Source: an uncultured Bacilli bacterium (GTDB lineage: Bacteria; Bacillota_I; Bacilli_A; RF39; UBA660). From it: a stretch of DNA of 64,000 nt. The stretch lies in the NCBI GenBank assembly GCA_934091055.1, contig CAKOKN010000002.1, forward strand, positions 77,446-141,445, written 5' to 3'. Positions 1,771 through 56,402 of this stretch are shown here, piece after piece. The number at the start of each line of letters is the position of its first letter. Position 1 is the stretch's first letter. Position numbers and translations under genes: made by a program. The notes below the pieces were generated by a model, which was not told the DNA's origin, did no database searches, and worked only from the letters and a program-made list of their open reading frames with translations.

Positions 1771-1820
1771 TCTTCTTTTTTTTAACCCATAACATATAAA
1801 TTTAGAAGGGAAGTGATACA

Positions 1821-2684: not shown

Positions 2685-2783
2685 TAGGTATTTAAAAAAT
2701 ACAAAAAATATGTTACCATTAAACTAGGAGATGATATTATTAACAACGAACTATTAGAATTTGCCAAAAGAAATAACATAAAT

Positions 2784-3551: not shown

Positions 3552-3901
3552 TGTTTAACCTAACAAAAGTAGAAGATACAAAACAATTAGAATTACCTCC
3601 TATCAAAGAAGGAGAAATATATATATTAAAAAAAGATGATACAATAGTAGGCTATGCCATAATAAATCAGTCATCCCCAAACAAAGTATATTTTTCAATA
3701 TTAGAAAAATACCGTAGTAACGGATATGGCAACATATTATTCAAACTTCTAAAAGAAAAACTAAAAGAAAAAGACTACACATCATTAACTTTCACAATAT
3801 CTAGAGACAACATTCCAGCCCAAAATATAATTGCCTCCCAAAAAGGAATACTAGTATCAAATAACAGCAAAGGAACAACATATACCATAGACTTAAAATA
3901 A
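3551..3901 (+). CDS. small GNAT-family N-acetyltransferase
   Basis: Acetyl-CoA motif A-like region EKYRSNGYGNILFKLL. The ATG overlaps the upstream stop (TAATG), implying translational coupling. Confidence 0.7.
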   Translation: MFNLTKVEDTKQLELPPIKEGEIYILKKDDTIVGYAIINQSSPNKVYFSILEKYRSNGYGNILFKLLKEKLKEKDYTSLTFTISRDNIPAQNIIASQKGILVSNNSKGTTYTIDLK

Positions 3902-4004
3902 TATCAAAAGTGTCAAGTACACTTTTTTCATTTCTATTTTTTAAAATTAAATGACAATTTAAAGATAATGTGGTAAAATACTATGGAAGAAAGAAGGAGT
4001 GTAT

Positions 4005-5351: not shown

Positions 5352-5359
5352 ATGATAAT

Positions 5360-7198
5360 ATGAATTATGAAGTAATAGTAGTAGGTGGAGGACACGCCGG
5401 ATGTGAAGCTGCAGTAGCATCATCTAGAAAAGGACACAAAACACTATTAGTAACAGGAAATATAAACAATATAGCTACAATGCCTTGTAACCCATCAATA
5501 GGAGGATCAGCAAAAGGCATAATAGTAAGAGAAATAGATGCACTGGGAGGCGTAATGGGCGAAGTAGCAGACAAAACACTAATCCAAATGAAAATGCTAA
5601 ATTATGCCAAAGGTCCAGCTGTAAAATCCCTTCGTGCTCAAGCCGATAAAATAACATACCCCAAAGAAATGTTAAATCTTTTAAGACAAGAAAAAAATCT
5701 TTCTATCAAAGAGGCAATGGTTGAGGACTTAATAGTAAAAGACAATACCGTATACGGAATAGTATCAGATAGTGGAGAAAACATAACAAGTAATATCGTT
5801 ATATTAACAACTGGAACATATCTAAAATCAGACATACTAATAGGAGACACTAGAACAAGAAGCGGTCCCCATAACGAAAAACCATCAATGCATCTATCCG
5901 ACAATCTAAAAAAATATGGCTTCAATATCTTAAGATTAAAAACAGGAACCCCTCCAAGAATAGACAGAAGCACTATAGATTTTACAAAAACAAAAAGAGA
6001 AGATGGAGACAAAATACCATATACTTTTTCACATACAAATCCTCCAATCTATGATGTAAATAATCAAGAACCTTGTTATTTAATATATACAACAGCAGAA
6101 ACAAAAAAAATAATACAAGACAATTTAAATAAATCAAGTATGTACGGAGGATTAGATGACATAACAGGAGTAGGCCCTAGATACTGCCCATCAATAGAAG
6201 ATAAAATGGTAAGATTCAGTGATAAAGAAAAACATCAATTATTCTTAGAACCAGAAAGTAAATACTATGACGATATCTATATACAAGGATTTTCAACCAG
6301 TATGCCAAGAACCATTCAAGAACAAATGGTACATTCACTACCAGGTCTAGAACAAGCCAAAATACTAAGATATGCCTACGCCATAGAATATGATGCAATT
6401 TATCCAACCCAAATCAAACCAAGCTTAGAAACCAAAGTATTAAATAATCTATTCACAGCAGGCCAAATAAATGGAACAAGCGGTTACGAAGAAGCTGCCT
6501 GCCAAGGTTTAATGGCTGGTATAAATGCTGGATTAAAACTAGAAGGTAAAGAACCATTAATATTAAAACGAAATGAAGCATATATTGGCGTACTAATAGA
6601 TGACTTAGTAACAAAAGGAACTAAAGAACCTTATCGAATGCTAACATCAAGAGCAGAGTATAGATTACTATTAAGACACGATAATTCCGACCTAAGATTA
6701 AGAGAATACGGCCATAAAGTAGGATTAATAAACGGCGATAAGTACGAAAAATTCCTAGATAAAAAGAATAATATTGAAAAATTAAAAGAAGAATTAAAAG
6801 AAATAAAAGTAACTGTAGATCAAGAAAAAAGAAGAGTAACTACAACTGTATACGATTATTTAAAAACTCCAAATATTAAATTAGACGAAATAATAAAAAA
6901 CTTTAATCTAAACTTAAATTATCCACAAGATGTTGTTGAAGAAGTAGAAATCCAAATAAAATATGATGGCTACATCAAAAAAGTATGTCGTGAAGCCGAT
7001 AAAATGTTAAAACAAGAAGAAAAACAAATACCTATAGATATTGACTATGATAAAATACCTAACTTAGCTAGTGAAGCCAGACAAAAATTAAAAGAGGTAA
7101 AACCATTGACTATTGCCCAAGCAATTAGAATAAGCGGAGTAAATCCCGCGGACATCTCAATACTACTTGTGTACTTAAGGAAGTATTATAATGAATAA
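5360..7198 (+). CDS. mnmG: tRNA uridine 5-carboxymethylaminomethyl modification enzyme MnmG
   Basis: N-terminal FAD fold VIVVGGGHAGCEAA, 612 aa, directly follows mnmE. Confidence 0.95.
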   Translation: MNYEVIVVGGGHAGCEAAVASSRKGHKTLLVTGNINNIATMPCNPSIGGSAKGIIVREIDALGGVMGEVADKTLIQMKMLNYAKGPAVKSLRAQADKITYPKEMLNLLRQEKNLSIKEAMVEDLIVKDNTVYGIVSDSGENITSNIVILTTGTYLKSDILIGDTRTRSGPHNEKPSMHLSDNLKKYGFNILRLKTGTPPRIDRSTIDFTKTKREDGDKIPYTFSHTNPPIYDVNNQEPCYLIYTTAETKKIIQDNLNKSSMYGGLDDITGVGPRYCPSIEDKMVRFSDKEKHQLFLEPESKYYDDIYIQGFSTSMPRTIQEQMVHSLPGLEQAKILRYAYAIEYDAIYPTQIKPSLETKVLNNLFTAGQINGTSGYEEAACQGLMAGINAGLKLEGKEPLILKRNEAYIGVLIDDLVTKGTKEPYRMLTSRAEYRLLLRHDNSDLRLREYGHKVGLINGDKYEKFLDKKNNIEKLKEELKEIKVTVDQEKRRVTTTVYDYLKTPNIKLDEIIKNFNLNLNYPQDVVEEVEIQIKYDGYIKKVCREADKMLKQEEKQIPIDIDYDKIPNLASEARQKLKEVKPLTIAQAIRISGVNPADISILLVYLRKYYNE

Positions 7199-7892
7199 AG
7201 ATTATTTTATAGAAGAATTAACAAAACTAGACATAACTCTTGAAGACAATAAACTAAATAAACTAGAAGAATACTATAGTCTCCTAGAAGAAGAAAACAA
7301 AAAATACAATTTAACAAGAATAATAGACAAACAAAATGTATATTTAAAACACTTCTATGACAGTTTAACCATTACTAAAATAATATCTATAGATAATCAG
7401 AGCATCTGCGACTTAGGTTCGGGAGCCGGTTTTCCAGGTCTAGTATTAGCAATATGCTTTCCTAATACAAGTATAACATTAATAGAATCCAATGGTAAAA
7501 AATGTCATTTTCTAAATCTAGTAAAAGATAAATTAAAACTAAACAATGTAGTAGTATTAAATACAAGAGTAGAAGAATATGCCAAAAACAATAGAGAAAT
7601 ATTTGATATAGTAACTGCTAGAGCAGTAGCTCCACTAAAACATCTATTAGAATATGGCATCCCTTTAGTAAAAGTTAATGGCTACTTTATAGCAATGAAG
7701 GCTAATATTGATAACGAAATCAATAACATAAATAATTATTATCAAAAGTTAAATATTAAAGAAATCAACAAAATAGTATTTGAATTACCAATAGAAAACA
7801 GTTTAAGAACTCTAATCAAATATCAAAAAATAGATAAAACAAACACAAAATATCCAAGAAAATATGCTGATATTATAAAAAAAGAAATATAA
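7191..7892 (+). CDS. rsmG: 16S rRNA (guanine527-N7)-methyltransferase RsmG
   Basis: SAM motif DLGSGAGFPGLVLA. Overlaps the mnmG stop, the conserved mnmG-rsmG order. Confidence 0.9.
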   Translation: MNKDYFIEELTKLDITLEDNKLNKLEEYYSLLEEENKKYNLTRIIDKQNVYLKHFYDSLTITKIISIDNQSICDLGSGAGFPGLVLAICFPNTSITLIESNGKKCHFLNLVKDKLKLNNVVVLNTRVEEYAKNNREIFDIVTARAVAPLKHLLEYGIPLVKVNGYFIAMKANIDNEINNINNYYQKLNIKEINKIVFELPIENSLRTLIKYQKIDKTNTKYPRKYADIIKKEI

Positions 7893-7968
7893 AATACTTG
7901 TAAATTTAACAAAATTATAGTATTATTATATTAGAGTAGATAAGAAGAAGCGAAAAGAGGGTATAATT

Positions 7969-9117
7969 ATGAAGATGAACAAAGAAGTCGTAATGGTAAG
8001 ATTATCTGATATTATTCCAAATAGGTTTCAGCCTAGATTAACATTTGATGAAGAAGCATTAAATGAATTAGCTAATTCAATAAAAGAACACGGAATAATT
8101 CAACCACTAATATTAAGAGATTTAGGAAGCAAATATGAAATAATTGCTGGAGAAAGAAGATATAAAGCTGCCACAATTGCTGGTCTTACTGAAGTTCCAG
8201 CTATAATTGGCTCTATGGATGACCAAACCAGTGCAGAGCTTGCTTTAATCGAAAACATTCAAAGAAAAGATTTATCTGCAATTGAAGAAGCAAAATCATA
8301 TAAGAAAATTCTAGACATGGGTAACTTTACTCAAGAACAATTAGCAAAAAGAATGGGAAAAGGCCAATCAACAATAGCTAATAAAATGAGACTACTTGCC
8401 CTAACTAATGAAGTCCAAGTTGCACTTATGAATAACTTAATTTCTGAAAGGCACGCAAGATGCTTGCTTCAAATCAAAGATGAAGACTTACAAAAAGAAG
8501 TCTTAAATAAAATAATTTCTGAAAGAATGAATGTCAGAGACACAGATGATTATATTAAAAATTTATTAGGTCTACCAAAAAATCCTCATAATAGTATAGA
8601 ACAAGAACATCAAGAAGCAACTCCAATAGTATCTGAGCCAGAATCAGTAATTACACCAAGTGTAGCTCCAAGTATATATAGTGATAGTACTAGTAATGTA
8701 TTAAACACATTAGATAGTCCTAAGGAAGAAGAAAAACCAATCTCTTCCCCAGCTCCTGTTGTTTCAAATGAAAAAACAAGCGACAATCCAAATGTATATA
8801 CACAAGTAAAAAATACTGATTTTGTAGACATCAGCAGTCTAAATCAAGATGACTCACCAAGTACAATAACTCCAGTATTACCAGAGAATGCTGAAGATGA
8901 AAATCAAAATGAGGGAGTAACGGTTATGCCAAATATTGAAAATATAGCAACAAATAAAGAAGAAAAAGATGATTCTTTAACTAAAATTCGTCTTGCTACC
9001 GCAATTAGATTAGTAAAAGATACGTTAGAAGATATCAAAGTAGCAGGTTACAACGCCACTATTGAAGAATCTGATGAAGATAAAGAATATAAAATAGTAA
9101 TAAAAATAGAAAAATAG
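7969..9117 (+). CDS. parB: ParB/Spo0J/Noc-family protein with a long low-complexity C-terminal extension
   Basis: ParB box GERRYKAA and HTH QEQLAKRMGKGQSTIANKMRLL. Residues ~200-330 are P/S/T/E/N-rich, followed by a short folded-looking tail. Confidence 0.8.
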   Translation: MKMNKEVVMVRLSDIIPNRFQPRLTFDEEALNELANSIKEHGIIQPLILRDLGSKYEIIAGERRYKAATIAGLTEVPAIIGSMDDQTSAELALIENIQRKDLSAIEEAKSYKKILDMGNFTQEQLAKRMGKGQSTIANKMRLLALTNEVQVALMNNLISERHARCLLQIKDEDLQKEVLNKIISERMNVRDTDDYIKNLLGLPKNPHNSIEQEHQEATPIVSEPESVITPSVAPSIYSDSTSNVLNTLDSPKEEEKPISSPAPVVSNEKTSDNPNVYTQVKNTDFVDISSLNQDDSPSTITPVLPENAEDENQNEGVTVMPNIENIATNKEEKDDSLTKIRLATAIRLVKDTLEDIKVAGYNATIEESDEDKEYKIVIKIEK

Positions 9118-14883: not shown

Positions 14884-14935
14884 AGTATTAATAATATGAT
14901 ACTATTATGATACTATAATGATGGAGGCAAATAAA

Positions 14936-15658
14936 ATGATAAAATTTATACTATGCGATGATAGTACCAACGCATTAGATAGAGCAAGTCAAGCAGTAAC
15001 CAAAACTATGATGAATTATGATATTGAATATAGAATACATAAATTTACAAGATTTGATGATAAATTAAAGGAAATGATAAAAGATGAGGCTGATACTAAA
15101 ATTTATATTTTAGATATTGAACTACCAATAGTAAGTGGTTTAGAAATAGCTTCAGAAATAAGAGAGATAGATGATGATAGCATAATAATATTTGTAACAG
15201 CACATTCTGAGTGCAAAAATGATATCTTCTATTCAAGATTACAGGCAATAGACTTTATTTCTAAATATCATAGATATGAGGAAAGATTAGGCCAAACAAT
15301 AGAACACGTGCTTAAAAAGTTGTGTAAGAATAAATCAATAGATTTTACATACGGTCACGTATATAATAAAATATTCTATAAAGAAATTAATTATATAGAA
15401 AAATCACCATCTCAAAATAAATGTATAATACATTTAACAAATAAGGATGAAAAGTTTATTTCTGATACTATAATGAAATTAAAACAAGATTTAGGTTCAC
15501 CATTTTTCCAAACACATAAATCTTGTCTAGTTAATCTAGATAACATAAAATTTATAGATTATGCAAAATTCACAATATATTTTAAAAATGGAGAAAGTAC
15601 ATTACTTCTAACTCCTATAGCTAGAAAGGAGTTGAGGAAACGTGTCGGAAGTTATTAA
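14936..15658 (+). CDS. LytTR-family response regulator (AgrA-like)
   Basis: Receiver domain (MIKFILCDD, ILDIELP) plus a C-terminal LytTR fold (FFQTHKSCLVNLDNI). GGAGG at 14921 favours ATG 14936. Confidence 0.85.
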   Translation: MIKFILCDDSTNALDRASQAVTKTMMNYDIEYRIHKFTRFDDKLKEMIKDEADTKIYILDIELPIVSGLEIASEIREIDDDSIIIFVTAHSECKNDIFYSRLQAIDFISKYHRYEERLGQTIEHVLKKLCKNKSIDFTYGHVYNKIFYKEINYIEKSPSQNKCIIHLTNKDEKFISDTIMKLKQDLGSPFFQTHKSCLVNLDNIKFIDYAKFTIYFKNGESTLLLTPIARKELRKRVGSY

Positions 15659-16967
15659 TGCATTTGCAAGTGGTGTATCTTTAGATGTTTCTGTATGTTT
15701 CTTTGGTAAAATAGTATTTGAAGAATTCAGAAAGAAAAATAAATCTTATAACATATTTATATTCTTATGTAGTAGTATATTACTTTCATTAATTAGTTCC
15801 TATCTTACTGGAACACCAAAAACAATTTTATTAAGTTTAATAATCTTCTTAACTTTAAAAGCAATGTTTAAAGTAGAAACTGGAAAAGCATTATTTTCCA
15901 CAATAATATATTCAATCGCAGCAATAATTCCTGATTTGATAGTAACAACATTCTTTATTTATGCATTAGTTGGAAAAGCTTACTTCTATGCACATCTAGC
16001 TGGCAGTGCAATATGTACCATATGTGTTAGTGGTCTAATGATTTTATTAATTTATGTCGCTAGAAAGCCATTAAAGAAGGTAGTGAATTTTAATCCGTCA
16101 ACAAATAAAAAGATAGTATTTGTGTCATTCATAACTTTGGTGTCTTTGGCTATATTCTTTTATAGATTAATAAAAACATTTGAATTTAATAATGACATAC
16201 TTTATTACATATTAGTTATAGTTACATTGATACTAATTCTATTACTATTATTTAAACAAAAATCGGATAACGAAAATATTACCAAAAGGTATGACGATTT
16301 ATTAACAGTTATGAAAGAGTATGAAACAGACATAGAAAAGCAAAGATCAACTATGCACGAAAATAAAAATGAACTTATGACTATAAAAAGTAAAATTAAT
16401 GGTCGTGAGAAAGAAGCTGAAGTACTAAGATATATTGACAGTATAATTGGCGATAAAGTTACTAAGGGAAAAACAAAATATTCCAAATTTAAATACTTGC
16501 CATCAAATGGTTTAAAAGGATTTTTCTATTATAAAGTTCTAGAAGCTGGAGAAAAAGATATTGATACAACAGTTAACGTTTCAAAACAAATAGAAAATTG
16601 TTTCTTAAAAGATTTAAAGACTAATGATTTCAAACAATTGGCAAGATTAATTGGTGTATATTTAGATAATGCCATCGAAGCTAGCGCAGCATCAGATAAA
16701 AAATTATTAGGAATAGAAGTTTACTTAATAAACGGTAATGCAAAAATAATTATTTCTAATACTTACGCCAATGATATAAATCTTGATAAAATGGGAAAAG
16801 AAAGATATAGTACAAAGGGTAAAAACAGAGGTCACGGCCTATTACTAGTAGAAATGATACTAAGTAAAAGCGATATCTTTGAAGCAAAAACAAAAGTAAC
16901 AGATGAGTTATACATACAAGAATTGACTATTAAAAATAAAACAAATAAAGAAAAAGACGCAAAATAA
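15642..16967 (+). CDS. AgrC-like (HPK10) membrane sensor histidine kinase
   Basis: About 6 TM helices, then a GHKL ATPase with N-box YLDNAIEAS and G-box NRGHGLLLV. GTG start overlaps the regulator gene. Confidence 0.8.
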   Translation: MSEVINAFASGVSLDVSVCFFGKIVFEEFRKKNKSYNIFIFLCSSILLSLISSYLTGTPKTILLSLIIFLTLKAMFKVETGKALFSTIIYSIAAIIPDLIVTTFFIYALVGKAYFYAHLAGSAICTICVSGLMILLIYVARKPLKKVVNFNPSTNKKIVFVSFITLVSLAIFFYRLIKTFEFNNDILYYILVIVTLILILLLLFKQKSDNENITKRYDDLLTVMKEYETDIEKQRSTMHENKNELMTIKSKINGREKEAEVLRYIDSIIGDKVTKGKTKYSKFKYLPSNGLKGFFYYKVLEAGEKDIDTTVNVSKQIENCFLKDLKTNDFKQLARLIGVYLDNAIEASAASDKKLLGIEVYLINGNAKIIISNTYANDINLDKMGKERYSTKGKNRGHGLLLVEMILSKSDIFEAKTKVTDELYIQELTIKNKTNKEKDAK

Positions 16968-16993
16968 AAAGGTCACAAATTGTGATCTTTTAT
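16966..16993. terminator. bidirectional terminator between the kinase gene and agrD
   Basis: AAAAA-GGTCACA-AAT-TGTGATC-TTTTAT, with A/T runs on both sides. Confidence 0.5.
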
Positions 16994-17005
16994 TTATTGT
17001 GCAGA

Positions 17006-17122
17006 TTATTTGTTTAATAAAGATTTTGGCATTTTAGGTTCATCAGCAAACCATAATATGCAAGCTTTAGTACCTAAGTTAGAAGACAATGAACCGATCC
17101 AAGATAATAATGATGCAAACAT
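17006..17122 (-). CDS. agrD: AgrD autoinducing-peptide precursor (38 aa; too short for the ORF track)
   Basis: Hand translation of the minus strand gives MFASLLSWIGSLSSNLGTKACILWFADEPKMPKSLLNK. AAGGAGG lies 6 nt upstream, 29 nt downstream of the agrB stop. It has an amphipathic leader, Cys+4 (CILWF), then the acidic ADEP-x-PK recognition tail. Confidence 0.75.
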   Translation of the reverse strand: MFASLLSWIGSLSSNLGTKACILWFADEPKMPKSLLNK

Positions 17123-17151
17123 ACTGTACCTCCTTTACTTCTTATTCCATA

Positions 17152-17760
17152 TTAACTATAAGAAACATCATAGTTTTTATAGTTATTATATGGTAATTGA
17201 AACATCCTATAAATTAAAGGGTGAATCATCAAAGTAGCTTCCAATAACCCCAAGAATAAATAATTACTAATAGAACTATCTCTAAATACAACAATTAATA
17301 TCAAATAAATAATACCATTTATCAAAGTGAAAATCTTATAAATTTTTCTTTTTCTTGCATTCAATAAAGGTCTTTTGTAGGTATCCGCTGGTGCATATTT
17401 AATTAAACATATAAATGATAAACAACTAATACTTATCTTTATATAAGAAGGAATGTCAACGTACTTAGCAATAAGTGCTCCTCCTATAAAGAAGAGAATT
17501 GAAATAATTAAACAATGACTGCTTTTCTTTGCGTGCATTCCAAATGCGGTAGTTCTAATAATATTATAAAAAATCATAATAATCAACATATCTTTAAATA
17601 TTCCTAAAATAAAAGCTAATATAAAGATAATTACTATCTTTGTTACAGTAAGATAAATAGCTTCAAGTCCATAGGCAATTTCCTCAAGTTTTTCCTCACT
17701 AAAGTTTGGATTTTTCTTCTTTATCTTACTTATAGAATTATTTAAAAACTTCTCTTTCAT
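17152..17760 (-). CDS. agrB: AgrB-family AIP-processing membrane peptidase
   Basis: Multi-TM protein with the catalytic pair in TAFGMHAKKSSHC (His, then Cys 7 residues later, as in AgrB). Confidence 0.85.
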   Translation of the reverse strand: MKEKFLNNSISKIKKKNPNFSEEKLEEIAYGLEAIYLTVTKIVIIFILAFILGIFKDMLIIMIFYNIIRTTAFGMHAKKSSHCLIISILFFIGGALIAKYVDIPSYIKISISCLSFICLIKYAPADTYKRPLLNARKRKIYKIFTLINGIIYLILIVVFRDSSISNYLFLGLLEATLMIHPLIYRMFQLPYNNYKNYDVSYS

Positions 17761-24443: not shown

Positions 24444-24523
24444 CAGTTCGCACTAAAGTTACTCACTGCTATAGAAAGCCTATGGTCTTTCTATAGAAAA
24501 TTAGAGCCTAAGGTCTCTAATTT
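24444..24523 (+). repeat. three-hairpin intergenic element, locus 1 (first unit decayed)
   Basis: CTATAGAAAG-cctatggt-CTTTCTATAG (24469-24496) and AAATTAGAG-cctaaggt-CTCTAATTT (24498-24523). The decayed unit at 24444-24468 aligns with the unit at 44681-44706. Confidence 0.65.
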
Positions 24524-24596: not shown

Positions 24597-24953
24597 ATGA
24601 AAAAAATATATTTAAAATATGATGAATATACTCCTCCAGTTGAATGTGATTATGGTTTTATTACAGAAATGATATACTTAGGTTTTTTATATCCAATAAA
24701 AAAAAGAAACTATAAAATGTTCTATATCATATTAATGACAGAAGTTGCAGTATCAACCTTAATAATGTGTTTTATACCATTTAAAATAGGAATTATAGTA
24801 TGCATATTAATGCTACTATTAATAAATATTCTATTTGCAGCTAACTATAATATGATAGTAATTGAAGAACTATTAAAGAGAGGCTATGTACCATTAGACT
24901 ATAATTCTTCTAATCAACTAATAAAAAAAGGAATATACTTCAAGTTACAATAA
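24597..24953 (+). CDS. small membrane protein (2 TM), function unknown
   Basis: RBS AGGTGG, two hydrophobic helices, 118 aa. Confidence 0.5.
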   Translation: MKKIYLKYDEYTPPVECDYGFITEMIYLGFLYPIKKRNYKMFYIILMTEVAVSTLIMCFIPFKIGIIVCILMLLLINILFAANYNMIVIEELLKRGYVPLDYNSSNQLIKKGIYFKLQ

Positions 24954-25085
24954 CTTATGTATATTCCTTTTATTAATCTAATATACTTTAATACTATTAT
25001 AATTAATTATTATTTTTTTAAAATATATACCAATTTTTAGAAAATTATGATATACTTTATTAAAGAATAATGGGGTGCATAATAG

Positions 25086-26012
25086 ATGGAAAAAATATTC
25101 AAAACTATAAATGAACAAATAGATATATTAAAAGATAAAGGATTGATTATTGAAGATGAGGACTATGCTAAAGAAACACTTCTAAGAGAAAACTATTTCT
25201 TTATTATGGGTTATAGACATTTATTTATGAAATCCAGTAAAGAAAATAAATTTATCGCAGGTACTACATTTGATGAATTATATGCTTTATTTACATTTGA
25301 TAGATCATTTAGAAATATAATATTTAAAAATGTTCTAGTAATAGAAAATCAACTTAAATCAGTAATTTCTTATCAATTATCTAAAAAATATGGTTATCGT
25401 GAAAAAGACTATCTAAATCCAAAGAACTTTACAAGTGATCACGATAAGGTAAGAAGAGTAAGAGATTTAGTAGATAAAATGAAAAGACAAATTAGAATTA
25501 ATGCTAATAGCCATAATGCTACAATGCACTATATGAATAATTATGGTTATATTCCCCTTTGGGTATTAGTCAAAGTCTTATCATTTGGTATTGTTTGTGA
25601 ATTATATACCATACTAAAGAAAGAAGATCAAATAGAAGTCGCAGAAACTTTTAATACTGTACCATCAGTACTCGAAGATATTCTAATAATACTTTCTAAC
25701 TATCGTAACCTATGTGCTCACGAAGACATAGTATTTGAACATAAAACAGAACGAGTAATACCAGATACTAAATATCATCAAATAATGAAAATACCAAAGA
25801 TGGATGGAGAATATATATATGGCAAGAATGACATATTTGCCTTAATCATAATATTTAAAATACTATTAAGTAAAAAAGATTTTAGATTAATGATGAAAGA
25901 AATAGAGTATGAATTAGAATTATTAGATGGAAAAATAGATACTATATCTATAAATAAAGTTTTAGATAGAATGGGCTTTCCTCAAAACTATATGGACATA
26001 ATAGGATGGTGA
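25086..26012 (+). CDS. Abi_2 (AbiD/AbiF-like) abortive-infection family protein
   Basis: N-terminal QIDILKDKGL, ENYFFIMGYRH, and the conserved NYRNLCAHED motif of the Abi_2 family. Confidence 0.75.
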   Translation: MEKIFKTINEQIDILKDKGLIIEDEDYAKETLLRENYFFIMGYRHLFMKSSKENKFIAGTTFDELYALFTFDRSFRNIIFKNVLVIENQLKSVISYQLSKKYGYREKDYLNPKNFTSDHDKVRRVRDLVDKMKRQIRINANSHNATMHYMNNYGYIPLWVLVKVLSFGIVCELYTILKKEDQIEVAETFNTVPSVLEDILIILSNYRNLCAHEDIVFEHKTERVIPDTKYHQIMKIPKMDGEYIYGKNDIFALIIIFKILLSKKDFRLMMKEIEYELELLDGKIDTISINKVLDRMGFPQNYMDIIGW

Positions 26013-33499: not shown

Positions 33500-34054
33500 A
33501 TGGATTATAGTATTTTAGTAAATAAAGATAATCCTCTACCAAGAGCATATATTCCTAATAATTTAGTATTAGCAGATAGTAAATATAAAGATAATATTTA
33601 TATAGATAAAGTAGTAAAAGAAGCATTTGATAGGTTAAAGCAGGATGCTAAAAACTATGGTTATAATATAGATATAGTAAGTGGATATCGTGATTATGAT
33701 TATCAAGAGAAGATCTATAATAAATTACTTGAAGAAAAGGGCTTTACGTATGCTATAACTAGAATAGCAGAGCCTGGTAAGTCTGAACATCAAACTTCTT
33801 TAGCGTTAGATTTTTGTATATATAAAGATGAAAAGTGTTATATAGAACACGATATTCAAGATAAGATTGAAACTAGGTGGATACACCAAAATTGTTATAG
33901 GTATGGGTTTATCTTGAGATATCCTGAGGGTAAGGAAGATATAACTAAATATAGTTATGAACCTTGGCATCTAAGATATGTAGGAGATATAGCTAGTAAT
34001 ATTTATAATAATAATTTAACTCTAGAAGAGTATAAAGAAAGAGAGTCTAGATAG
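33500..34054 (+). CDS. VanY-type D-alanyl-D-alanine carboxypeptidase (M15B)
   Basis: SGYRDYDYQ, SEHQTSLALD, EPWHLRY zinc-ligand motifs. GGAGG precedes ATG 33500. Confidence 0.85.
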   Translation: MDYSILVNKDNPLPRAYIPNNLVLADSKYKDNIYIDKVVKEAFDRLKQDAKNYGYNIDIVSGYRDYDYQEKIYNKLLEEKGFTYAITRIAEPGKSEHQTSLALDFCIYKDEKCYIEHDIQDKIETRWIHQNCYRYGFILRYPEGKEDITKYSYEPWHLRYVGDIASNIYNNNLTLEEYKERESR

Positions 34055-34071
34055 ATAGACTTTCTTTTTTT
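34034..34071 (+). terminator. intrinsic terminator after the VanY-type gene
   Basis: AGTCTA/TAGACT core extended by A-T and G-C pairs, followed by a T run. It overlaps the stop codon. Confidence 0.55.
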
Positions 34072-34157
34072 GTCGTCTCACACTAAAGTAGTTCGTCGTT
34101 TTCTAATGCCTAAGGTCATTAGAAAAAATTTTTGAGCCTATAAATGTCTCAAAAATT
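34071..34157 (+). repeat. three-hairpin intergenic element, locus 2 (first unit decayed)
   Basis: TTTTCTAATG-cctaaggt-CATTAGAAAA (34099-34126) and AATTTTTGAG-cctataaatgt-CTCAAAAATT (34127-34157). The decayed 5' unit shares CACTAAAGT with locus 1. Confidence 0.65.
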
Positions 34158-34179: not shown

Positions 34180-34236
34180 TTGACATATATTAAGAATAGT
34201 GCTATCATTTAAATATATGAATACATATTCATATAT
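34180..34236 (+). promoter_or_regulatory. cad operon promoter with an ArsR/CadC-type palindromic operator
   Basis: TTGACA 34180-34185, 17-nt spacer, TATCAT 34203-34208, then an 11-2-11 inverted repeat ATATATGAATA-CA-TATTCATATAT at 34213-34236. Confidence 0.55.
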
Positions 34237-38730: not shown

Positions 38731-39330
38731 ATGATGGATGATATGAATAAAAACTTCAATAGTTTAATAAATGAAATAAGAAAATGCAATATTTGTGAAG
38801 ATAAGTTTGGTTTCAAGCCACATCCAGTAGTCATAGGTTCGGCCAATTCAAAAATAGTTCAAGTAAGCCAAGCACCATCTAAAACAGTAGACACTACCTT
38901 AAAACCATTTACTGATCAAAGTGGTAAAAAATTAAAATATGAATGGTACCAAATAGCAGATGAAGAATTCTATAATCCGGATAACTTCTTTATTACAGCA
39001 CTAGCGCATTGTTACCCGGGCAAAGATAAAAATGGTAATGATAAAGCTCCACCTAAGGTATGTTATGAAAAATGGATAAAGAAAGAATTAGAATATATAG
39101 ATAACAAAATATATATAATAATTGGAGCTAAAGCTGCTAAAACATTCTTTCCAAACGAAGAATATAATGACTTAATATTTAAAAATAATATACTATTTGG
39201 TAAACTAGCGATAGTTCTGCCGCATCCATCACCACTTAACATAAAATGGTTCAAAGATAACCCAAACTTTATGGAAAGAAGAATTATCGAAATAAGAAAA
39301 ATAGTAAAAGATATACTAAGCAAAAAGTAA
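38731..39330 (+). CDS. uracil-DNA glycosylase superfamily protein
   Basis: UDG-fold motifs IVQVSQAPS (motif A region) and VLPHPSPLN (motif B). Confidence 0.7.
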   Translation: MMDDMNKNFNSLINEIRKCNICEDKFGFKPHPVVIGSANSKIVQVSQAPSKTVDTTLKPFTDQSGKKLKYEWYQIADEEFYNPDNFFITALAHCYPGKDKNGNDKAPPKVCYEKWIKKELEYIDNKIYIIIGAKAAKTFFPNEEYNDLIFKNNILFGKLAIVLPHPSPLNIKWFKDNPNFMERRIIEIRKIVKDILSKK

Positions 39331-39355
39331 ACTAGTGATACTAAAAAATAGTGTA
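39323..39355 (+). repeat. 33-bp direct repeat, copy 1 (includes the UDG stop and terminator arm)
   Basis: AAAAAGTAAACTAGTGATACTAAAAAATAGTGT; 31/33 identical to the sequence at 40744-40776. Confidence 0.65.
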
Positions 39356-39453
39356 GGAGTTACTTTGTTTTTAAAATTTTGTTTTATATATTATAAAACG
39401 CCATCGTAATAAATCGACAATATTGCAAAAAAGTTACTCTGTACCGTAATAAA

Positions 39454-39482
39454 TTGACAAAAATTAAATATAGTATTATAAT
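39454..39482 (+). promoter_or_regulatory. sigma-A promoter (TTGACA-17-TATAAT) of the ATPase cassette
   Basis: TTGACA 39454-39459, 17-nt spacer, TATAAT 39477-39482. Confidence 0.5.
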
Positions 39483-39508
39483 GTATATATAAGAAAGGAA
39501 GATAGATT

Positions 39509-40705
39509 ATGGTTATTCGTGAAAGATATTTAAAATTAATTAGACCATTTTATGATCAAGAGTTAATTAAAGTATTAATTGGTATTAGACGTTCTGGGAA
39601 ATCAGTTATTTTAAAACAAATAATAGATGAGTTAAAAGAAAATAATGTTGATGATAATCACATTATCTATATTAACTTTGAAGATTATGATTATGAAGAA
39701 TATACTGATCCTAAAAAATTAAACAGTTATGTTAAAGAAAAAATAATTGATGATAAAAAGTATTATATATTTTTTGATGAAATTCAAAATGTTGATAAGT
39801 GGGAAAAAGTTGTTAATTCATTAAGAGCAACAAAGAATACATCTATTTTTATAACTGGTTCTAATAGTGATTTGTTATCTAGTGATTTAGCAACTCACAT
39901 AGCAGGAAGATATGTAAGCTTTAAAATAACTCCATTTACATTTGATGAAGTATGTAAGTTATTAAACATTAAAGATAATAGAAATATTGAAGATGCATTT
40001 AATGATTATATTAAATGGGGTGGAATGCCACAAAGGTTTATGCAAAAAGATGATATATCAAGAAAAACTTATTTAAATGATATTTATGATTCAATAATAA
40101 TAAAAGATATCGTAAAAAGATTTAATATTAAAGATATAGATTTATTAAATAGAATAGTTACTTATATACTAACTACTCCATCTCAAGTGTTTTCACCTGA
40201 TAGTTTAAAAAAATATATGCAAAGTGACTCTAGAAATGTATCGCTAGAAACTTTATATAATTATCTTGATTACATAACTCGTGCAAATCTTATTTCAAAA
40301 GCAGAAAGATATGATGTTAGAGGTAAAAGAATTCTTACAGGTAAATATAAATATTATTTAACTGATTTAGGTTTTACTAATATTTTAAGTGAAGGTAAGA
40401 AAGAACAAATTGGTGCCTATTTAGAGAACATTGTTTATAATGAACTTATTGCTAGAGGATATAATGTTAATATTGGTACATTAGAAAATGGCGAAATAGA
40501 TTTTATAGCAACAAGATTTAATGAAAAAATATATATTCAGGTTACTTATATTTTAAGTGATGAAACAGTAATTGATAGAGAATTTAATGCTTATAAAAAG
40601 ATTGAAGATAACTATCCAAAATATGTTCTTTCAATGGATAAATTTGATTTATCACAAAATGGCATAATTCATAAAAATATAATTGATTGGTTGTTAAAAA
40701 AATAA
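39509..40705 (+). CDS. AAA-type ATPase with a DUF4143-like C-terminal domain (COG1373 type)
   Basis: Walker A GIRRSGKSV, Walker B YIFFDEIQ, and a C-terminal restriction-endonuclease-like tail (GEIDFIA). Confidence 0.75.
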   Translation: MVIRERYLKLIRPFYDQELIKVLIGIRRSGKSVILKQIIDELKENNVDDNHIIYINFEDYDYEEYTDPKKLNSYVKEKIIDDKKYYIFFDEIQNVDKWEKVVNSLRATKNTSIFITGSNSDLLSSDLATHIAGRYVSFKITPFTFDEVCKLLNIKDNRNIEDAFNDYIKWGGMPQRFMQKDDISRKTYLNDIYDSIIIKDIVKRFNIKDIDLLNRIVTYILTTPSQVFSPDSLKKYMQSDSRNVSLETLYNYLDYITRANLISKAERYDVRGKRILTGKYKYYLTDLGFTNILSEGKKEQIGAYLENIVYNELIARGYNVNIGTLENGEIDFIATRFNEKIYIQVTYILSDETVIDREFNAYKKIEDNYPKYVLSMDKFDLSQNGIIHKNIIDWLLKK

Positions 40706-44680: not shown

Positions 44681-44762
44681 CACTTCGAGTCTAAGGTCTC
44701 TCAGTGTTTTTGAAGCCTTAAGGTCTTCAAAAAGAAATTAATAGCCTAAGGTCTATTAATTT
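44681..44762 (+). repeat. three-hairpin intergenic element, locus 3 (all three units intact)
   Basis: CACTTCGAG-tctaaggt-CTCTCAGTG (44681-44706), TTTTTGAAG-ccttaaggt-CTTCAAAAA (44707-44733), AAATTAATAG-cctaaggt-CTATTAATTT (44735-44762). Confidence 0.7.
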
Positions 44763-51389: not shown

Positions 51390-51404
51390 AGGTAGGTAAT
51401 AAAA

Positions 51405-51980: not shown

Positions 51981-51981
51981 T

Positions 51982-52323
51982 ATGTCATTAGATAAACTTA
52001 GAAAAGGAAGAAATGTAAAACGTGTCGAGGGAGATAGACATTTTGATGAAGTAATTAAGAAAGCATCTTCAGTTCCAAAAACACCTGCTAAAGAGAAACC
52101 ATATGCTTCTGAATTAAATAACTTAGGAAGAAAAGCATACTTTGATGAATATTTCTATGAAATAAAAGTAGAGGATCAAGTATTTCCTAAAATAGGAGAG
52201 TTTGAAAACCCTTCTGAAACATATAGTTTTAAGCAAGGTTATCAAAGAGGAGAATTACTAGTAAATAATGGTATAGTACCTGAAGAATATCAAAATATAA
52301 ATAATAGTAATAAACACAGATAG
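51982..52323 (+). CDS. hypothetical charged protein, paralog 3 of 3 (most diverged)
   Basis: The ATG lies 1 nt after the paralog 2 stop, preceded by AAAGGAAG. YSFKQGYQRGELL aligns with the Y-x-Y-G-x-x-ERG-x-R-x-L block. Confidence 0.65.
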   Translation: MSLDKLRKGRNVKRVEGDRHFDEVIKKASSVPKTPAKEKPYASELNNLGRKAYFDEYFYEIKVEDQVFPKIGEFENPSETYSFKQGYQRGELLVNNGIVPEEYQNINNSNKHR

Positions 52324-54470: not shown

Positions 54471-56246
54471 ATGAGTAAAATAAAAGTAATGAGTGAACTA
54501 CTATCCAATAAAATAGCAGCAGGAGAAGTAGTAGAAAAAGTAGTATCAATAGTTAAGGAACTAGTGGAAAATTCTGTTGATGCCAAAAGCACTGAAATAA
54601 AAATAGACCTAAAAGAAGCTGGTCTAAGAGAAATAGTAGTTACTGATAATGGTATAGGTATGGATAAAGATGATGCTGTTTTAGCCTTTCAAAGACATGC
54701 CACTAGTAAACTATATACCGATGATGATCTATTTAATATAAACTCTCTAGGTTTCCGTGGTGAGGCCTTACCATCAATCGCTGCAGTATCCGAAGTTCTA
54801 CTAAAGACATCACAAGGCGAAGTAGGAACAGTTGTCCACATCAAAGGTGGAAAAATACTTGAAAATAAACAAGGTGATGCCAGAAAAGGAACACAAATAA
54901 CAGTTACCAATATGTTCTATAATACCCCTGCCAGATTAAAACATCTATCCAGTCCTTATGCTGAACTAGCGGGAGTTACTGAATATGTAAATAAAATGGC
55001 CCTTTCATATCCAAGTATTAAGTTTAGATTAACTAATGATGAAAAAGAACTATTAAATACCGATGGGTCTGGTAATTTACTTAAAGTAATAAAATCAATA
55101 TATGGTCTAGAAATAACTAAAAAGATGCTTGCAATAAATGGCTCTAATGACGACTATGATGTATCAGGTTACATTTCCTTACCTGAAGTAAATAGAGCCT
55201 CAAGAAATCATATGACTGTCCTAGTAAATGGAAGAGTAATAAGAAATCAAGTACTAAATAAAGTAATAAATGACTCTTATTCATCCTTCAAAGAAGATAC
55301 CAGATATCCAATCGTGGTAATTAAAATAGATACTGATCCATCCCTAATTGATGTAAATATTCACCCTTCTAAACAAGATATCAAGTTTAGTAATTTTGAA
55401 GATTTAAAAACACTTATATCAACCCTAATTGTGGATACAATAAAAACAAAATTATTAATACCAAAGATAGAAGTAAAAGAAGAACCACAAGTAAAGTATG
55501 AAAATTTAGCATTAAATTTAGATCGAAATATCATAAATGAACCAAGTGAAGTAAATCCTGATAAAGAAAGATTAACTAATTTAATTAACTTTAACTATGA
55601 ACAAAATAATGAATATGATAAAGAAGAGGAAGAAGAATATATTGAAGAAAGACCTAAAGATACCCTTCCTGAATTATATCCTATTGGACTAGCCTTAGGT
55701 ACATATATAGTATGTGAAAATGAAAGAGGAATCTATCTGATAGATCAGCACGCAGCAGAAGAAAGAATTAATTATGAAAGAAATTCATACTTACTTGCCC
55801 ATCCCAGTGGTAATACCATAACGCCTCTTATTCCTATCATAATAGAACTACCTAATAATGAGTTTATAAAAGTAAAAGAAAATATTGATATTTTAGATAG
55901 TTTAAATATCAAAGTAGAAGAGTTTGGTAGTAATTCATATCGTATTCTATCACATCCTACTTGGTTTACTAAAGGTAGAGAAAAAGAGATAATATCTAAA
56001 ATATTTGAAGATATAACAAATAAAGGTAAAGATTTTAGTTTAGCTAAATTTAATGATAATTTAGCTAAATTAGTAAGTTGTAAAATGAGTATTAAAGCTA
56101 ATACTAGAATAACTAAAGAAGCCCAAGAAGAGATAATTAATAAACTTAGAAAGTGTAATAATCCATTTAATTGTCCTCACGGAAGACCTACTATAATACA
56201 TTTTACTACTTATGAAATAGAAAGAATGTTTAAAAGAGTAGTATAA
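54471..56246 (+). CDS. mutL: DNA mismatch repair protein MutL
   Basis: GHKL ATPase motifs IAAGEVVE, ELVENSVDA, DNGIGM, FRGEALPSI, and the C-terminal endonuclease motif region. GAGGTG favours ATG 54471. Confidence 0.93.
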   Translation: MSKIKVMSELLSNKIAAGEVVEKVVSIVKELVENSVDAKSTEIKIDLKEAGLREIVVTDNGIGMDKDDAVLAFQRHATSKLYTDDDLFNINSLGFRGEALPSIAAVSEVLLKTSQGEVGTVVHIKGGKILENKQGDARKGTQITVTNMFYNTPARLKHLSSPYAELAGVTEYVNKMALSYPSIKFRLTNDEKELLNTDGSGNLLKVIKSIYGLEITKKMLAINGSNDDYDVSGYISLPEVNRASRNHMTVLVNGRVIRNQVLNKVINDSYSSFKEDTRYPIVVIKIDTDPSLIDVNIHPSKQDIKFSNFEDLKTLISTLIVDTIKTKLLIPKIEVKEEPQVKYENLALNLDRNIINEPSEVNPDKERLTNLINFNYEQNNEYDKEEEEEYIEERPKDTLPELYPIGLALGTYIVCENERGIYLIDQHAAEERINYERNSYLLAHPSGNTITPLIPIIIELPNNEFIKVKENIDILDSLNIKVEEFGSNSYRILSHPTWFTKGREKEIISKIFEDITNKGKDFSLAKFNDNLAKLVSCKMSIKANTRITKEAQEEIINKLRKCNNPFNCPHGRPTIIHFTTYEIERMFKRVV

Positions 56247-56332
56247 GTAAGAGCCCAAGGTCTCTTACTTACATAAAAAGCCTCAGGTCTTTTTATGTTA
56301 ATTTAGAGCCTATTATATAGTCTCTAAATTAA
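56244..56332 (+). repeat. three-hairpin intergenic element, locus 4 (all three units intact)
   Basis: TAAGTAAGAG-cccaaggt-CTCTTACTTA (56244-56271), CATAAAAAG-cctcaggt-CTTTTTATG (56272-56297), stem TTAATTTAGAG / CTCTAAATTAA around cctattatatagt (56298-56332). Confidence 0.7.
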
Positions 56333-56371
56333 AAAATATTTATATTGCAAAGAAGAATATTCATATAAGAC

Positions 56372-56402
56372 AAAGACAAGAATCAAATAATCTTGTCTTT
56401 TT
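56372..56402 (+). terminator. intrinsic terminator upstream of miaA
   Basis: AAAGACAAGA-ATCAAATAA-TCTTGTCTTT followed by TT. Confidence 0.7.

What the first reader, a model, noticed from the sequence alone, without database searches (positions are those of the whole stretch)
24444..24523. Dispersed three-hairpin element with covarying stems and an invariant apical core AG-CCTAAGGT-CT (family description; locus 1, after cwlD)
This locus has two adjacent perfect hairpins: CTATAGAAAG-cctatggt-CTTTCTATAG (24469-24496) and AAATTAGAG-cctaaggt-CTCTAATTT (24498-24523). A decayed third unit (24444-24468, CAGTTCGCACTAAAGTTACTCACTG) precedes them and aligns with the unit at 44681-44706. The same ~85-nt, three-unit architecture recurs at 34071-34157, 44681-44762 and 56244-56332. 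In all 10 intact units the 8-11-bp stems differ in sequence but remain complementary. They all close on the same core, (A/T)G-CCTAAGGT-C(T/A), with variants cctatggt, ccttaaggt, cccaaggt, cctcaggt, tctaaggt, or expanded cctaTAAATgt and cctaTTATATAgt. The core can extend the helix: G-C, C-G, C-G around a TAA triloop, with one bulged T. Every unit is intergenic and in the same + orientation. A conserved loop with covarying stems points to selection on the structure and on loop recognition by a protein or nucleic acid, not on the stem sequence. I do not recognise this as a named repeat or RNA family. Loci 1-3 each sit at the upstream edge of an accessory block (the membrane protein + Abi genes; cadC-cadA; GNAT/MazG-like/HipA-like). 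This suggests a REP/BIME- or attC-like recombination or insertion hotspot as one hypothesis.
Basis: seen in the sequence. Interest (0 to 1): 0.72.

Follow-up and report, generated by a model that had tools for sequence, protein, structure and literature searches.

The report
Tandem mismatch-capped hairpin repeats between genes
An abundant, uncultured low-GC gut bacterium and at least 14 related species carry a previously undescribed family of short intergenic DNA repeats, built of two or three adjacent hairpins that share a tiny asymmetric cap. They resemble the REP elements of E. coli in behaviour but not in design, and they often sit where gene content varies.

Summary
The window holds four intergenic modules (24444-24523, 34072-34157, 44681-44762, 56244-56332), all on the + strand. 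Each has three adjacent hairpins.

A covariance model built only from other genomes recovers exactly the nine perfect window units and nothing else. Stems covary strongly: 82% paired against 57% when shuffled.

It is only 5'-GCC...GTC-3', which forms a G-C pair, a C·T mismatch and a C-G pair. The capping loop is usually TAAG, but at loci 1 and 4 it is the part that changes between close strains.

The family occurs in about 15 low-GC uncultured gut species. It is strictly intergenic (0 of 67 elements lie inside ORFs). It lies after stop codons, or between a canonical terminator and the next promoter. Orientation follows the upstream gene about 2:1.

The family has no Rfam, plasmid, phage or literature match. 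It fails the defining tests for canonical REP, attC and intrinsic terminators.

The same variants occur in unrelated contexts, and near-identical copies occur within 13 kb. Synteny breaks and defence or accessory islets abut the elements.

Best reading: a new REP-like, non-autonomous hairpin repeat recognised as single-stranded nucleic acid, with DNA favoured. The partner protein and the function are unknown.

The parts
24444..24468 (+). Locus 1, unit 1. This is subtype ii: an imperfect hairpin CAGT-TC-GCA-ctaaagt-TAC-TC-ACTG with a degenerate apex, preceded by a T-run.
   Evidence: The same subtype occurs in L110 and L063.
24469..24496 (+). Locus 1, unit 2: CTATAGAAAG-CCTATGGT-CTTTCTATAG.
   Evidence: model hit of 28.8 bits. 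The loop reads TAAG in strain L008 and ATTAA in L010.
24498..24523 (+). Locus 1, unit 3: AAATTAGAG-CCTAAGGT-CTCTAATTT.
   Evidence: 40.5 bits. The loop reads TCAG in 6 strain contigs. L010 has a compensated stem change (A-T to G-C) and a 10-nt palindromic loop.
34044..34071 (+). Canonical intrinsic terminator of the VanY-like gene (AGTCTA-gataga-TAGACT plus a T-run), immediately before locus 2.
   Evidence: Read. The same terminator-then-element order occurs in L113 and L124a.
34072..34098 (+). Locus 2, unit 1 (subtype ii, degenerate apex).
   Evidence: A near-identical unit 1 occurs in L113 in an unrelated gene context.
34099..34126 (+). Locus 2, unit 2: TTTTCTAATG-CCTAAGGT-CATTAGAAAA.
   Evidence: 41.6 bits.
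34127..34157 (+). Locus 2, unit 3: AATTTTTGAG-CCTATAAATGT-CTCAAAAATT (expanded loop).
   Evidence: 20.3 bits. It is followed by the promoter TTGACA(34180)-17-TATCAT(34208) of cadC-cadA.
44681..44706 (+). Locus 3, unit 1 (subtype i): CACT-TC-GAG-TCTAAGGT-CTC-TC-AGTG with a 2x2 pyrimidine internal loop.
44707..44733 (+). Locus 3, unit 2: TTTTTGAAG-CCTTAAGGT-CTTCAAAAA.
   Evidence: The stem is identical in five species-level genomes.
44735..44762 (+). Locus 3, unit 3: AAATTAATAG-CCTAAGGT-CTATTAATTT.
   Evidence: 41.9 bits. The orthologues L102 and L066 have different, fully compensated stems.
56244..56271 (+). Locus 4, unit 1: TAAGTAAGAG-CCCAAGGT-CTCTTACTTA. It overlaps the mutL stop codon.
   Evidence: The loop differs in the sister lineage (TAG) while the stem is identical.
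56271..56298 (+). Locus 4, unit 2: ACATAAAAAG-CCTCAGGT-CTTTTTATGT.
   Evidence: 36 bits. The loop is TAAG in the sister lineage.
56298..56332 (+). Locus 4, unit 3: TTAATTTAGAG-CCTATTATATAGT-CTCTAAATTAA. The long loop is itself palindromic (CTAT-TAT-ATAG).
56349..56400 (+). Not part of the element. This is the remnant (3' end of a 70-aa ORF plus its terminator hairpin at 56372-56400) of a 2.1-kb three-gene block that is present in the sister lineage and deleted here between AAAGAAG microhomologies.

Best explanation
This is a lineage-specific family of REP-like, non-coding, non-autonomous repeat modules. A module is 55-90 bp long and consists of two or three hairpin units placed head to tail in the same orientation.

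Each unit has an A/T-rich stem of 8-11 bp whose sequence is free to vary. The stem always closes on 5'-GCC...GTC-3', that is a G-C pair, a C·T mismatch and a C-G pair. The unit is capped by a tetraloop (TAAG in 56% of units) or by a longer insert that is itself palindromic.

Shown here:
- The family, its structure and the stem covariation.
- The invariant asymmetric cap.
- Strict intergenic location in the spacer between transcription units.
- Persistence at orthologous sites across species.
- The same variants in unrelated sites.

Inferred:
- The unit is read as a folded single strand. DNA is favoured over RNA, and in the window the strand would be the lagging-strand template.
- A trans-acting, structure-specific protein uses the mismatch to tell strand and orientation apart, and copies or maintains the elements. 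This is how Y1 HUH enzymes treat REP and IS200/IS605 hairpins.
- The fragility or portable homology of the hairpins makes these spacers preferred junctions for gain and loss of accessory and defence genes.
For: Structure and statistics.

The invariant asymmetry is never repaired. The symmetric form GCC-N4-GGC occurs 0 times, against 62 occurrences of GCC-N4-GTC.

The pairing pattern looks DNA-like.
- G·T pairs are no commoner than A·C (5 against 3).
- A-T to T-A flips are common.
- In orthologues, whole stems are replaced with both arms changed.

The element is not tied to transcripts.
- Locus 2, L113, L124a and L239 copy B lie after a canonical terminator and before a promoter.
- Locus 3 lies between divergent genes, about 13 nt upstream of a -35 box that I read by eye on the minus strand, upstream of RNase J. 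The promoter scan did not list this promoter.
- 19 of 60 elements are antisense to the upstream gene.
- 0 of 67 lie inside ORFs.

The elements persist. Locus 3 is present in 5 genomes and locus 4 in at least 4 lineages. Stems are identical where coding DNA is 76-82% identical.

There is evidence of multiplication.
- Window locus 2 matches L113, and L072 matches L101, at 80-82% identity in non-homologous contexts.
- L239 holds three near-identical copies within 9 kb, one of them inverted.
- In L243, homology to L108 ends exactly at the element's edge.

Orientation. The window adjoins oriC-side genes, and all four modules face the direction of fork movement.

Distribution. About 15 species-level low-GC gut MAGs carry the family, and the other 596 Gb of genomes scanned do not.
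Against: No partner enzyme was found. About 60 window ORFs include no Y1/HUH transposase, other transposase or integrase. The rest of the genome could not be searched.

No empty site, target duplication or excision footprint was found, so mobility is inferred from distribution alone.

The 2:1 co-orientation with the upstream gene, and starts only 4-9 nt after stop codons, also fit an RNA role.

L132 and L134 each hold oppositely oriented elements 300 nt apart, so a pure replication-direction rule fails.

Contexts taken from metagenome assemblies (L243, L239) could be chimeric.

The defining features of canonical REPs are not met.
Confidence: 0.45

Rival explanations
1. RNA-level element. The hairpin array is transcribed at the 3' end of operons. 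There it blocks 3'-5' exonucleases, backs up termination or insulates neighbouring operons. Alternatively it offers two or three copies of a GCC/GUC-capped hairpin to an RNA-binding protein.
For: About two thirds of elements are co-oriented with, and a median of 25 nt downstream of, a gene's stop codon. The two-hairpin form starts 4-9 nt after stop codons. In the sister lineage the locus 4 element lies between mutL and an ORF that starts about 30 nt later, so it must be transcribed there. The RNA folds are stable.
Against: The terminator scan finds no terminator at loci 1 and 3, and there is no U-tract after the hairpins. Several copies lie downstream of a canonical terminator, or between divergent promoters. 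A third are antisense. There is no G·U enrichment. There is no promoter of its own and no Rfam match. A conserved C·U mismatch is not explained by a stability role.
Confidence: 0.25
2. Site-specific recombination site, attC-like in logic. A recombinase acts on the folded strand and inserts or exchanges gene blocks next to the element.
For: Variable blocks begin at or within about 30 nt of the 3' edge of the element. Examples:
- Locus 1 has AbiD plus a small protein, where L010 has a DUF285 gene.
- Locus 3 has different genes in L102, L128 and L066.
- Locus 4 has a 2.1-kb block in the sister lineage.
- Locus 2 has cadC-cadA.

In L239 a retron block is flanked by 121-bp direct repeats that contain the element. 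The conserved mismatch recalls the extrahelical bases that set strand choice in attC.
Against: There is no integrase, attI or cassette array in the window or in the variable blocks. No second element lies at the far end of the blocks at loci 1, 3 and 4. The locus 4 difference is a microhomology deletion 17 nt away from the element, not a deletion at it. Other variable blocks in the window have no element (38731-40705 and after miaA). Units are 26-35 nt long and lack the R/L boxes.
Confidence: 0.1
3. Mutational by-product. A short seed motif nucleates DNA hairpins, and template switching within quasi-palindromes extends and perfects the arms. The elements have no function and no dedicated protein.
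For: The arms are perfect and differ between loci. Both arms change together. The loops are the variable part at loci 1 and 4. The longer loops are themselves palindromic.
Against: Self-correction should erase the C·T mismatch, yet it is invariant. Unit order and the unit 1, 2 and 3 subtypes are conserved across species. The same variants recur in unrelated sites. Stems are more conserved than the neighbouring coding DNA.
Confidence: 0.12

Closest known systems
REP / BIME / REPIN elements (repetitive extragenic palindromes of Proteobacteria, mobilised by RAYT/TnpA-REP)
   Same: They are short imperfect palindromes of 20-40 nt. They are strictly extragenic, mostly just 3' of genes and rarely between divergent genes. 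They occur singly or in clusters and carry a conserved mispair or bulge in the stem. They are present in many copies and persist at orthologous sites. They are associated with IS insertions and rearrangements.
   Different: REPs have conserved, G+C-rich stems and a GT[AG]G tetranucleotide at the foot. In BIMEs and REPINs the units are inverted relative to each other (definitions from PMC6006769). Here stems are A/T-rich (basal GC 0.17) and variable. The conserved part is at the top of the hairpin. GT[AG]G occurs in only 7 of 96 units. Units are in direct orientation. No RAYT was seen. The hosts are low-GC Bacilli/Clostridia-like gut MAGs.
Integron attC sites
   Same: Structure is conserved rather than sequence. 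Unpaired bases give strand identity. The sites are co-oriented and lie at the boundaries of accessory genes.
   Different: An attC is one 57-141 nt hairpin with R''/L''-L'/R' boxes (R' = GTTRRRY). It works with IntI and attI, in arrays of promoterless cassettes. None of this is present here, and units are 26-35 nt in tandem.
Subterminal hairpins of IS200/IS605 elements and their miniature derivatives
   Same: They are small hairpins with a mispaired or extrahelical base, read on single-stranded DNA of the lagging-strand template. They have no terminal inverted repeats.
   Different: Those hairpins flank a transposase or passenger gene and need guide and target tetranucleotides. Here there is no flanked gene, no TnpA was found, and the hairpins are tandem.
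Intrinsic (Rho-independent) terminators
   Same: They are hairpins downstream of genes in an A/T-rich genome.
   Different: There is no T-run after the stem. The elements are found both before and after genuine terminators and between divergent promoters. Genuine terminators do not share a conserved cap.
BOX elements of Streptococcus pneumoniae; single-strand origins (ssoA) of rolling-circle plasmids
   Same: BOX elements are modular intergenic repeats of a Firmicute that fold into stem-loops. In ssoA a conserved loop motif sits on variable stems and works in one orientation only, on single-stranded DNA. Both comparisons are from my own knowledge.
   Different: There is no sequence relation. 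BOX modules are 45-59 nt with conserved sequence. ssoA is a single element of about 150-200 nt on plasmids, and the element found no plasmid match.

Membership tests
REP/BIME (canonical, as defined in PMC6006769) | Short extragenic imperfect palindrome in many dispersed copies | tested here: met
   There are 4 loci in 64 kb. 85 unique units were found in 860 kb of related DNA. 0 of 67 elements lie inside ORFs.
REP/BIME (canonical, as defined in PMC6006769) | GT[AG]G tetranucleotide 0-2 nt 5' of the hairpin foot | tested here: not met
   Only 7 of 96 units have GT[AG]G within 6 nt of the foot.
REP/BIME (canonical, as defined in PMC6006769) | G+C-rich basal stem; stem sequence conserved within a family | tested here: not met
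   The mean GC of the four basal stem bases is 0.17. There are 53 different 8-nt stems among 85 units.
REP/BIME (canonical, as defined in PMC6006769) | Units paired in inverted orientation (BIME/REPIN) | tested here: not met
   Units within a module are always in direct orientation.
REP/BIME (canonical, as defined in PMC6006769) | A cognate tnpA-REP (RAYT) gene in the genome, usually flanked by REPs | not testable with these tools
   None was found among about 60 window ORFs. The whole genome was not available.
Integron attC | Single 57-141 nt imperfect hairpin with R''/L'' and L'/R' boxes (R' = GTTRRRY) | tested here: not met
   Units are 26-35 nt long and tandem. Their 3' arms end in A/T-rich sequence such as CTCTAATTT.
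Integron attC | Integron integrase, attI and a cassette array nearby | tested here: not met
   No tyrosine recombinase was found in the window. There is no element at the far end of the variable blocks.
Intrinsic terminator | G+C-rich hairpin followed directly by a run of T | tested here: not met
   The scan finds none at loci 1 and 3. Genuine terminators lie next to the element at locus 2 and in L113, L124a and L099a.
Any Rfam 15 RNA family | Covariance-model score at or above the gathering threshold | tested here: not met
   There were 0 hits in the window. Only chance-level hits were found at locus 3 at E up to 10. No hit overlaps an element in 8 related loci.
CsrB/RsmZ-type protein-sponge RNAs | Independent sRNA gene with GGA motifs in several hairpin loops | tested here: not met
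   Loops read TAAG and variants without GGA. No promoter of its own is evident; several elements start at or within a few nt of stop codons.
IS200/IS605-derived miniature elements | Left and right subterminal hairpins with guide and target tetranucleotides, and a TnpA(Y1) in the genome | not testable with these tools
   No empty sites were recovered and the whole genome could not be searched. The T-run seen 5' of subtype-ii unit 1 in 6 of 6 cases is a lead only.

The most novel reading that the evidence does not exclude
The modules are the landing and exchange sites of a so far unknown single-strand, hairpin-specific recombination system in gut Bacilli. The system uses the C·T-mismatched cap to choose the strand, and it organises small defence and accessory islets (AbiD, a retron, cadCA, PDC-like genes) at operon boundaries. 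It would be functionally analogous to integrons, with different sites and a different, unidentified enzyme.
Probability: 0.1. Interest if true: 0.85.

Novelty: new variant of a known kind. Interest (0 to 1): 0.6.

Why it matters
The host is a very common but uncultured human-gut lineage. One miaA allele alone is on 193 contigs.

A repeat family whose conserved part is a three-base-pair cap with an obligatory mismatch, on freely varying stems, is an unusual design. It implies recognition of shape plus a minimal sequence, probably on single-stranded DNA.

If a partner enzyme exists, it would extend the REP/RAYT and attC/IntI paradigm to low-GC Firmicutes. It would also give a handle on how small defence islets are gained and lost in these genomes.

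Practically, the elements break metagenome assemblies. Several contigs end inside them, and they may cause chimeric joins. They could also serve as strain markers, because at loci 1 and 4 the loops differ between close strains.

Tried and rejected
- Tandem-core pattern scan of viral contigs: 41 hits, all coding or direct tandem repeats and none of hairpin type.
- Hairpin-type 16-mers in viral contigs: one genuine element only (L149), next to cell-surface-like genes rather than in a clear phage context.
- BLAST against plasmids and phages: nothing.
- Literature search for the core sequence: only PCR primers. Keyword searches found no description.
- tRNA or tmRNA origin: none in the window.
- Restriction-site idea (CCTNAGG): the site is not avoided outside the elements, with 5 outside sites against about 3-4 expected.
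- GC skew of 8-kb loci to infer replication direction: confounded by the coding strand, so abandoned.
- General loop hypervariability: it holds at loci 1 and 4, but locus 3 is identical in 10 strain contigs and locus 2 in 2. I therefore report it as a tendency.
- IS30-family insertion in L066 as evidence of targeting: it lies about 12 nt upstream of the element with a possible 11-12 bp duplication, so it is not at the hairpins.
- Exact-protein look-ups for the VanY-like gene and PcrA found nothing.

Full report
**1. What is there**

An exhaustive hairpin scan of the window lists nine perfect hairpins whose inter-arm sequence starts CC and ends GT. They lie at 24469-24496, 24498-24523, 34099-34126, 34127-34157, 44707-44733, 44735-44762, 56244-56271, 56271-56298 and 56298-56332. 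A tenth unit, imperfect, lies at 44681-44706.

GCCTAAGGTC with at most one mismatch occurs 8 times against 0.82 expected. RNA folding predicts three adjacent hairpins at each locus, with z-scores from -2.9 to -7.1. The window is 27.4% G+C.

Its first genes are yidC, jag/khpB, mnmE, mnmG, rsmG and parB, all on the + strand. From knowledge of Firmicute chromosomes, this cluster lies next to oriC and is transcribed away from it. The + strand is therefore the direction of fork movement, and all units face that way.

**2. Anatomy, from 85 unique units**

Hairpin-type hits came only from 23-30% G+C uncultured gut MAGs. These carry labels such as:
- 'uncultured Bacilli' (Hadza)
- 'Tenericutes UMGS610 / UMGS1739'
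- 'Clostridium sp. CAG:302'
- 'Firmicutes bacterium CAG:321'
- 'Bacilli LOHA07 / LOHA26'
- a rabbit MAG

That is about 15 species. All hits in high-GC genomes were tandem direct repeats. A metagenome scan added 80 low-GC loci.

Across 860 kb there are 85 unique perfect units with 53 different 8-nt stems. The loop between GCC and GTC is TAAG in 48 units. In 21 it is another tetranucleotide (TTAG, TGTA, TCAG, CAAA, TAGG and others). In the rest it is 3, 5 or 7-11 nt long. The longer loops are themselves palindromic, for example CTTA-ATAA-TAAG and CTAT-TAT-ATAG.

Only GCC and GTC are invariant. Because many variants keep a single G before TC, the reading that fits all units is a G-C pair, a C·T mismatch and a C-G pair. 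The symmetric, 'repaired' form GCC-N4-GGC never occurs (0 against 62).

Modules come in two forms.
- *Three-unit form.* Unit 1 has a short outer stem, a 2x2 or 3x3 all-pyrimidine internal loop, and GAG/CTC below the cap. In a second subtype of unit 1 the cap is degenerate and a T-run precedes it. Units 2 and 3 have recurrent stem types: about TTTTTGAAG or CTATAGAAAG for unit 2, and about AATTTAGAG for unit 3.
- *Two-unit form.* It begins CCYCTTAAG-GCC... and starts 4-9 nt after stop codons.

**3. Statistics**

Sites were picked by the cap alone, so the stems were not part of the selection. Of 62 such sites, 46 have at least 8 of 10 Watson-Crick flanking pairs, while control caps reach at most 5-6.

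On 57 units, 82.2% of cells pair against 57.0% after shuffling (0 of 500 shuffles reach it). The covariation score is 0.619 against 0.169, and slid controls score 0.25 or less. RNAalifold reports 14 of 17 pairs with double changes and almost no one-sided (G·U) intermediates.

A covariance model built from 60 units of other genomes recovers exactly the nine perfect window units on the + strand, and nothing else below E = 0.5 apart from reverse-strand echoes of the same units.

**4. Context**

None of 67 non-redundant elements lies inside an ORF. 41 follow a co-oriented gene, at a median of 25 nt. 19 do not. One apparent exception, L124b, follows a 45-aa ORF.

The elements are not terminators. 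The consensus scan finds none at loci 1 and 3. Their position relative to genuine terminators also varies.
- At locus 2, L113, L124a and L239 copy B the order is stop codon, canonical hairpin plus T-run, element, sigma-70 promoter.
- In L099a a terminator follows the element.
- Locus 3 lies between divergently transcribed RNase J and a GNAT gene. It is about 13 nt upstream of a -35 box that I read by eye on the minus strand; the promoter scan did not list this promoter.
- In L132 and L134, oppositely oriented elements lie 300 nt apart.

The element therefore occupies the spacer between transcription units. It may or may not be transcribed.

**5. Evolution**

*Orthologous copies persist.*
- Locus 3 is present in L066, L102, L108 and L128, where the flanking coding DNA is 79-82% identical. 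Units 2 and 3 are identical in L108 and L128. In L102 and L066, unit 3 has four changes on each arm, all compensated.
- Locus 4 is present in L101 and L106 (76-79% identity) and in a sister lineage (95%).
- At locus 1, strain L010 shows one compensated pair change.

*Between close relatives the changes fall in the loops.*
- At locus 1 the only two SNPs in the 163-nt spacer among nine strain contigs are loop positions 24483 and 24510.
- At locus 4 the three differences from the sister lineage within the 88-nt element are all in the loops of units 1 and 2.
- Locus 3 is identical in ten strain contigs and locus 2 in two. This is therefore a tendency, not a rule.

*The same variants occur in unrelated contexts.*
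- Window locus 2 matches L113, and L072 matches L101, at 80-82% identity with no homologous flanking genes.
- L239 holds three near-identical two-unit elements within 9 kb, one of them inverted.
- L243 is 99.5% identical to L108 up to the exact 5' edge of unit 1 and then differs. That is either a rearrangement or an assembly join through a second identical copy.
- Several contigs end inside elements (L008, L009, L146, L173).

**6. Link with variable gene content**

- *Locus 1.* The element is followed by a 118-aa protein plus AbiD. L010 has a DUF285 gene instead.
- *Locus 3.* The genes after the element differ in L102 (three paralogous membrane proteins) and L128 (a 554-aa protein), and also in L066. 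L066 also has an IS30-family element about 12 nt upstream.
- *Locus 4.* The sister lineage has a 2.1-kb three-gene block starting 30 nt after the element. The window has lost that block by a deletion between AAAGAAG repeats, which left the terminator at 56372-56400.
- *Locus 2.* It precedes cadC-cadA.
- *L239.* A retron block (Ec107-like RT, a PtuA-like fragment and a Fic protein) is flanked by 121-bp direct repeats. Each repeat contains the element and a promoter.

Against a specific mechanism:
- The variable blocks hold no recombinase.
- There is no second element at the far ends of the blocks at loci 1, 3 and 4.
- Other variable blocks have no element (38731-40705 and after miaA).

A rough count in the roughly 21 kb with orthologues gives 2 of 2 element-bearing junctions variable, against 3 of about 18 others. 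This is my estimate and corresponds to P of about 0.05.

**7. Interpretation**

The family behaves like REP/BIME elements. It is extragenic, lies at the 3' side of genes, is clustered, carries a conserved mispair, persists over time, multiplies, and sits at rearrangement-prone sites. It nevertheless fails the canonical REP definition quoted in PMC6006769:
- GT[AG]G at the foot occurs in only 7 of 96 units.
- Basal-stem GC is 0.17.
- Units are direct, not inverted.

It also fails the tests for attC, intrinsic terminators, Rfam families and CsrB-like RNAs (see the membership table).

I favour recognition of a folded single strand, with DNA more likely than RNA, for these reasons:
- The position relative to terminators and promoters is inconsistent.
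- A third of copies are antisense.
- There is no wobble-pair signature.
- Whole stems are replaced rather than changed stepwise.
- The mismatch is never repaired.

An RNA role at 3' ends remains a serious rival (0.25). No partner protein was found in the window, and the rest of the genome could not be searched.

**8. Verdict**

The feature is real, statistically secure and apparently undescribed. I found no Rfam, plasmid, phage or literature match. I file it as a new variant of the REP-like kind, with an unusual conserved-cap, variable-stem design. Its function and mechanism remain open.

Noticed in passing
window 198-9117: The window opens with yidC, jag/khpB (KH + R3H), an MscS-like gene, mnmE, mnmG, rsmG and parB, all on the + strand. 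This is the gene cluster that flanks oriC in Firmicutes, so the window is probably the first 64 kb of a replichore.
   Followed up: partly
window 24597-26012: A 118-aa protein with no family match plus an AbiD-type abortive-infection gene (PADLOC AbiD, E = 6e-58) sit directly after locus 1. One strain contig (L010) has a DUF285 gene on the other strand at this position instead.
   Followed up: partly
window 38731-40705: A uracil-DNA-glycosylase-family gene plus an AAA_14/DUF4143 ATPase (PADLOC candidate PDC-S01, E = 1e-149) are absent from some strains (L169, L171). This is a variable islet with no hairpin element at its edges.
   Followed up: partly
window 56349-56400; L159 7757-9904: The terminator before miaA is the remnant of a three-gene block (90 aa, 440-544 aa of variable length, 70 aa). 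The block is present in the sister lineage and was deleted here between AAAGAAG repeats.
   Followed up: yes
L239 928-3864: A retron-type defence block (RT Ec107-like at E = 2e-130, a PtuA-like ATPase fragment and a Fic-domain protein) lies downstream of recG. It is flanked by 121-bp direct repeats (96% identical), each made of the hairpin element plus a promoter, RBS and start codon. The differences between the two repeats seen within the element lie in the cap of hairpin 1.
   Followed up: partly
L066 281-2337: An IS30-family-like insertion (408-aa protein with an HTH_38 domain) lies about 12 nt upstream of the locus 3 element. It has a possible 11-12 bp direct repeat, ACAAATTTTAAT.
   Followed up: partly
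L008, L009, L146, L173 (contig ends); L243 position 830: Metagenome contigs often end inside the hairpin modules, and one contig changes context exactly at a module edge. The elements probably break or mis-join short-read assemblies.
   Followed up: partly
L253, about 5320-5372 on the reverse strand (compare L099 2873-2926): A strain variant has lost the 5' arm and cap of the first hairpin, leaving only its 3' arm CTTAAGAGG. This is a deletion polymorphism within an element.
   Followed up: no
window 14918-17760: An agr-like quorum-sensing set: a LytTR response regulator, a GHKL histidine kinase, and AgrB on the opposite strand.
   Followed up: no
window 34213-34236: A perfect 10-bp palindrome, ATATATGAAT-acat-ATTCATATAT, lies between the cad promoter and cadC. 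It is probably the ArsR/CadC operator.
   Followed up: no
window 50898-52323: Three small ORFs between infB and rbfA have no Pfam match. They are too diverged from the sister lineage to align, while the rest of the operon is 80-95% identical.
   Followed up: no
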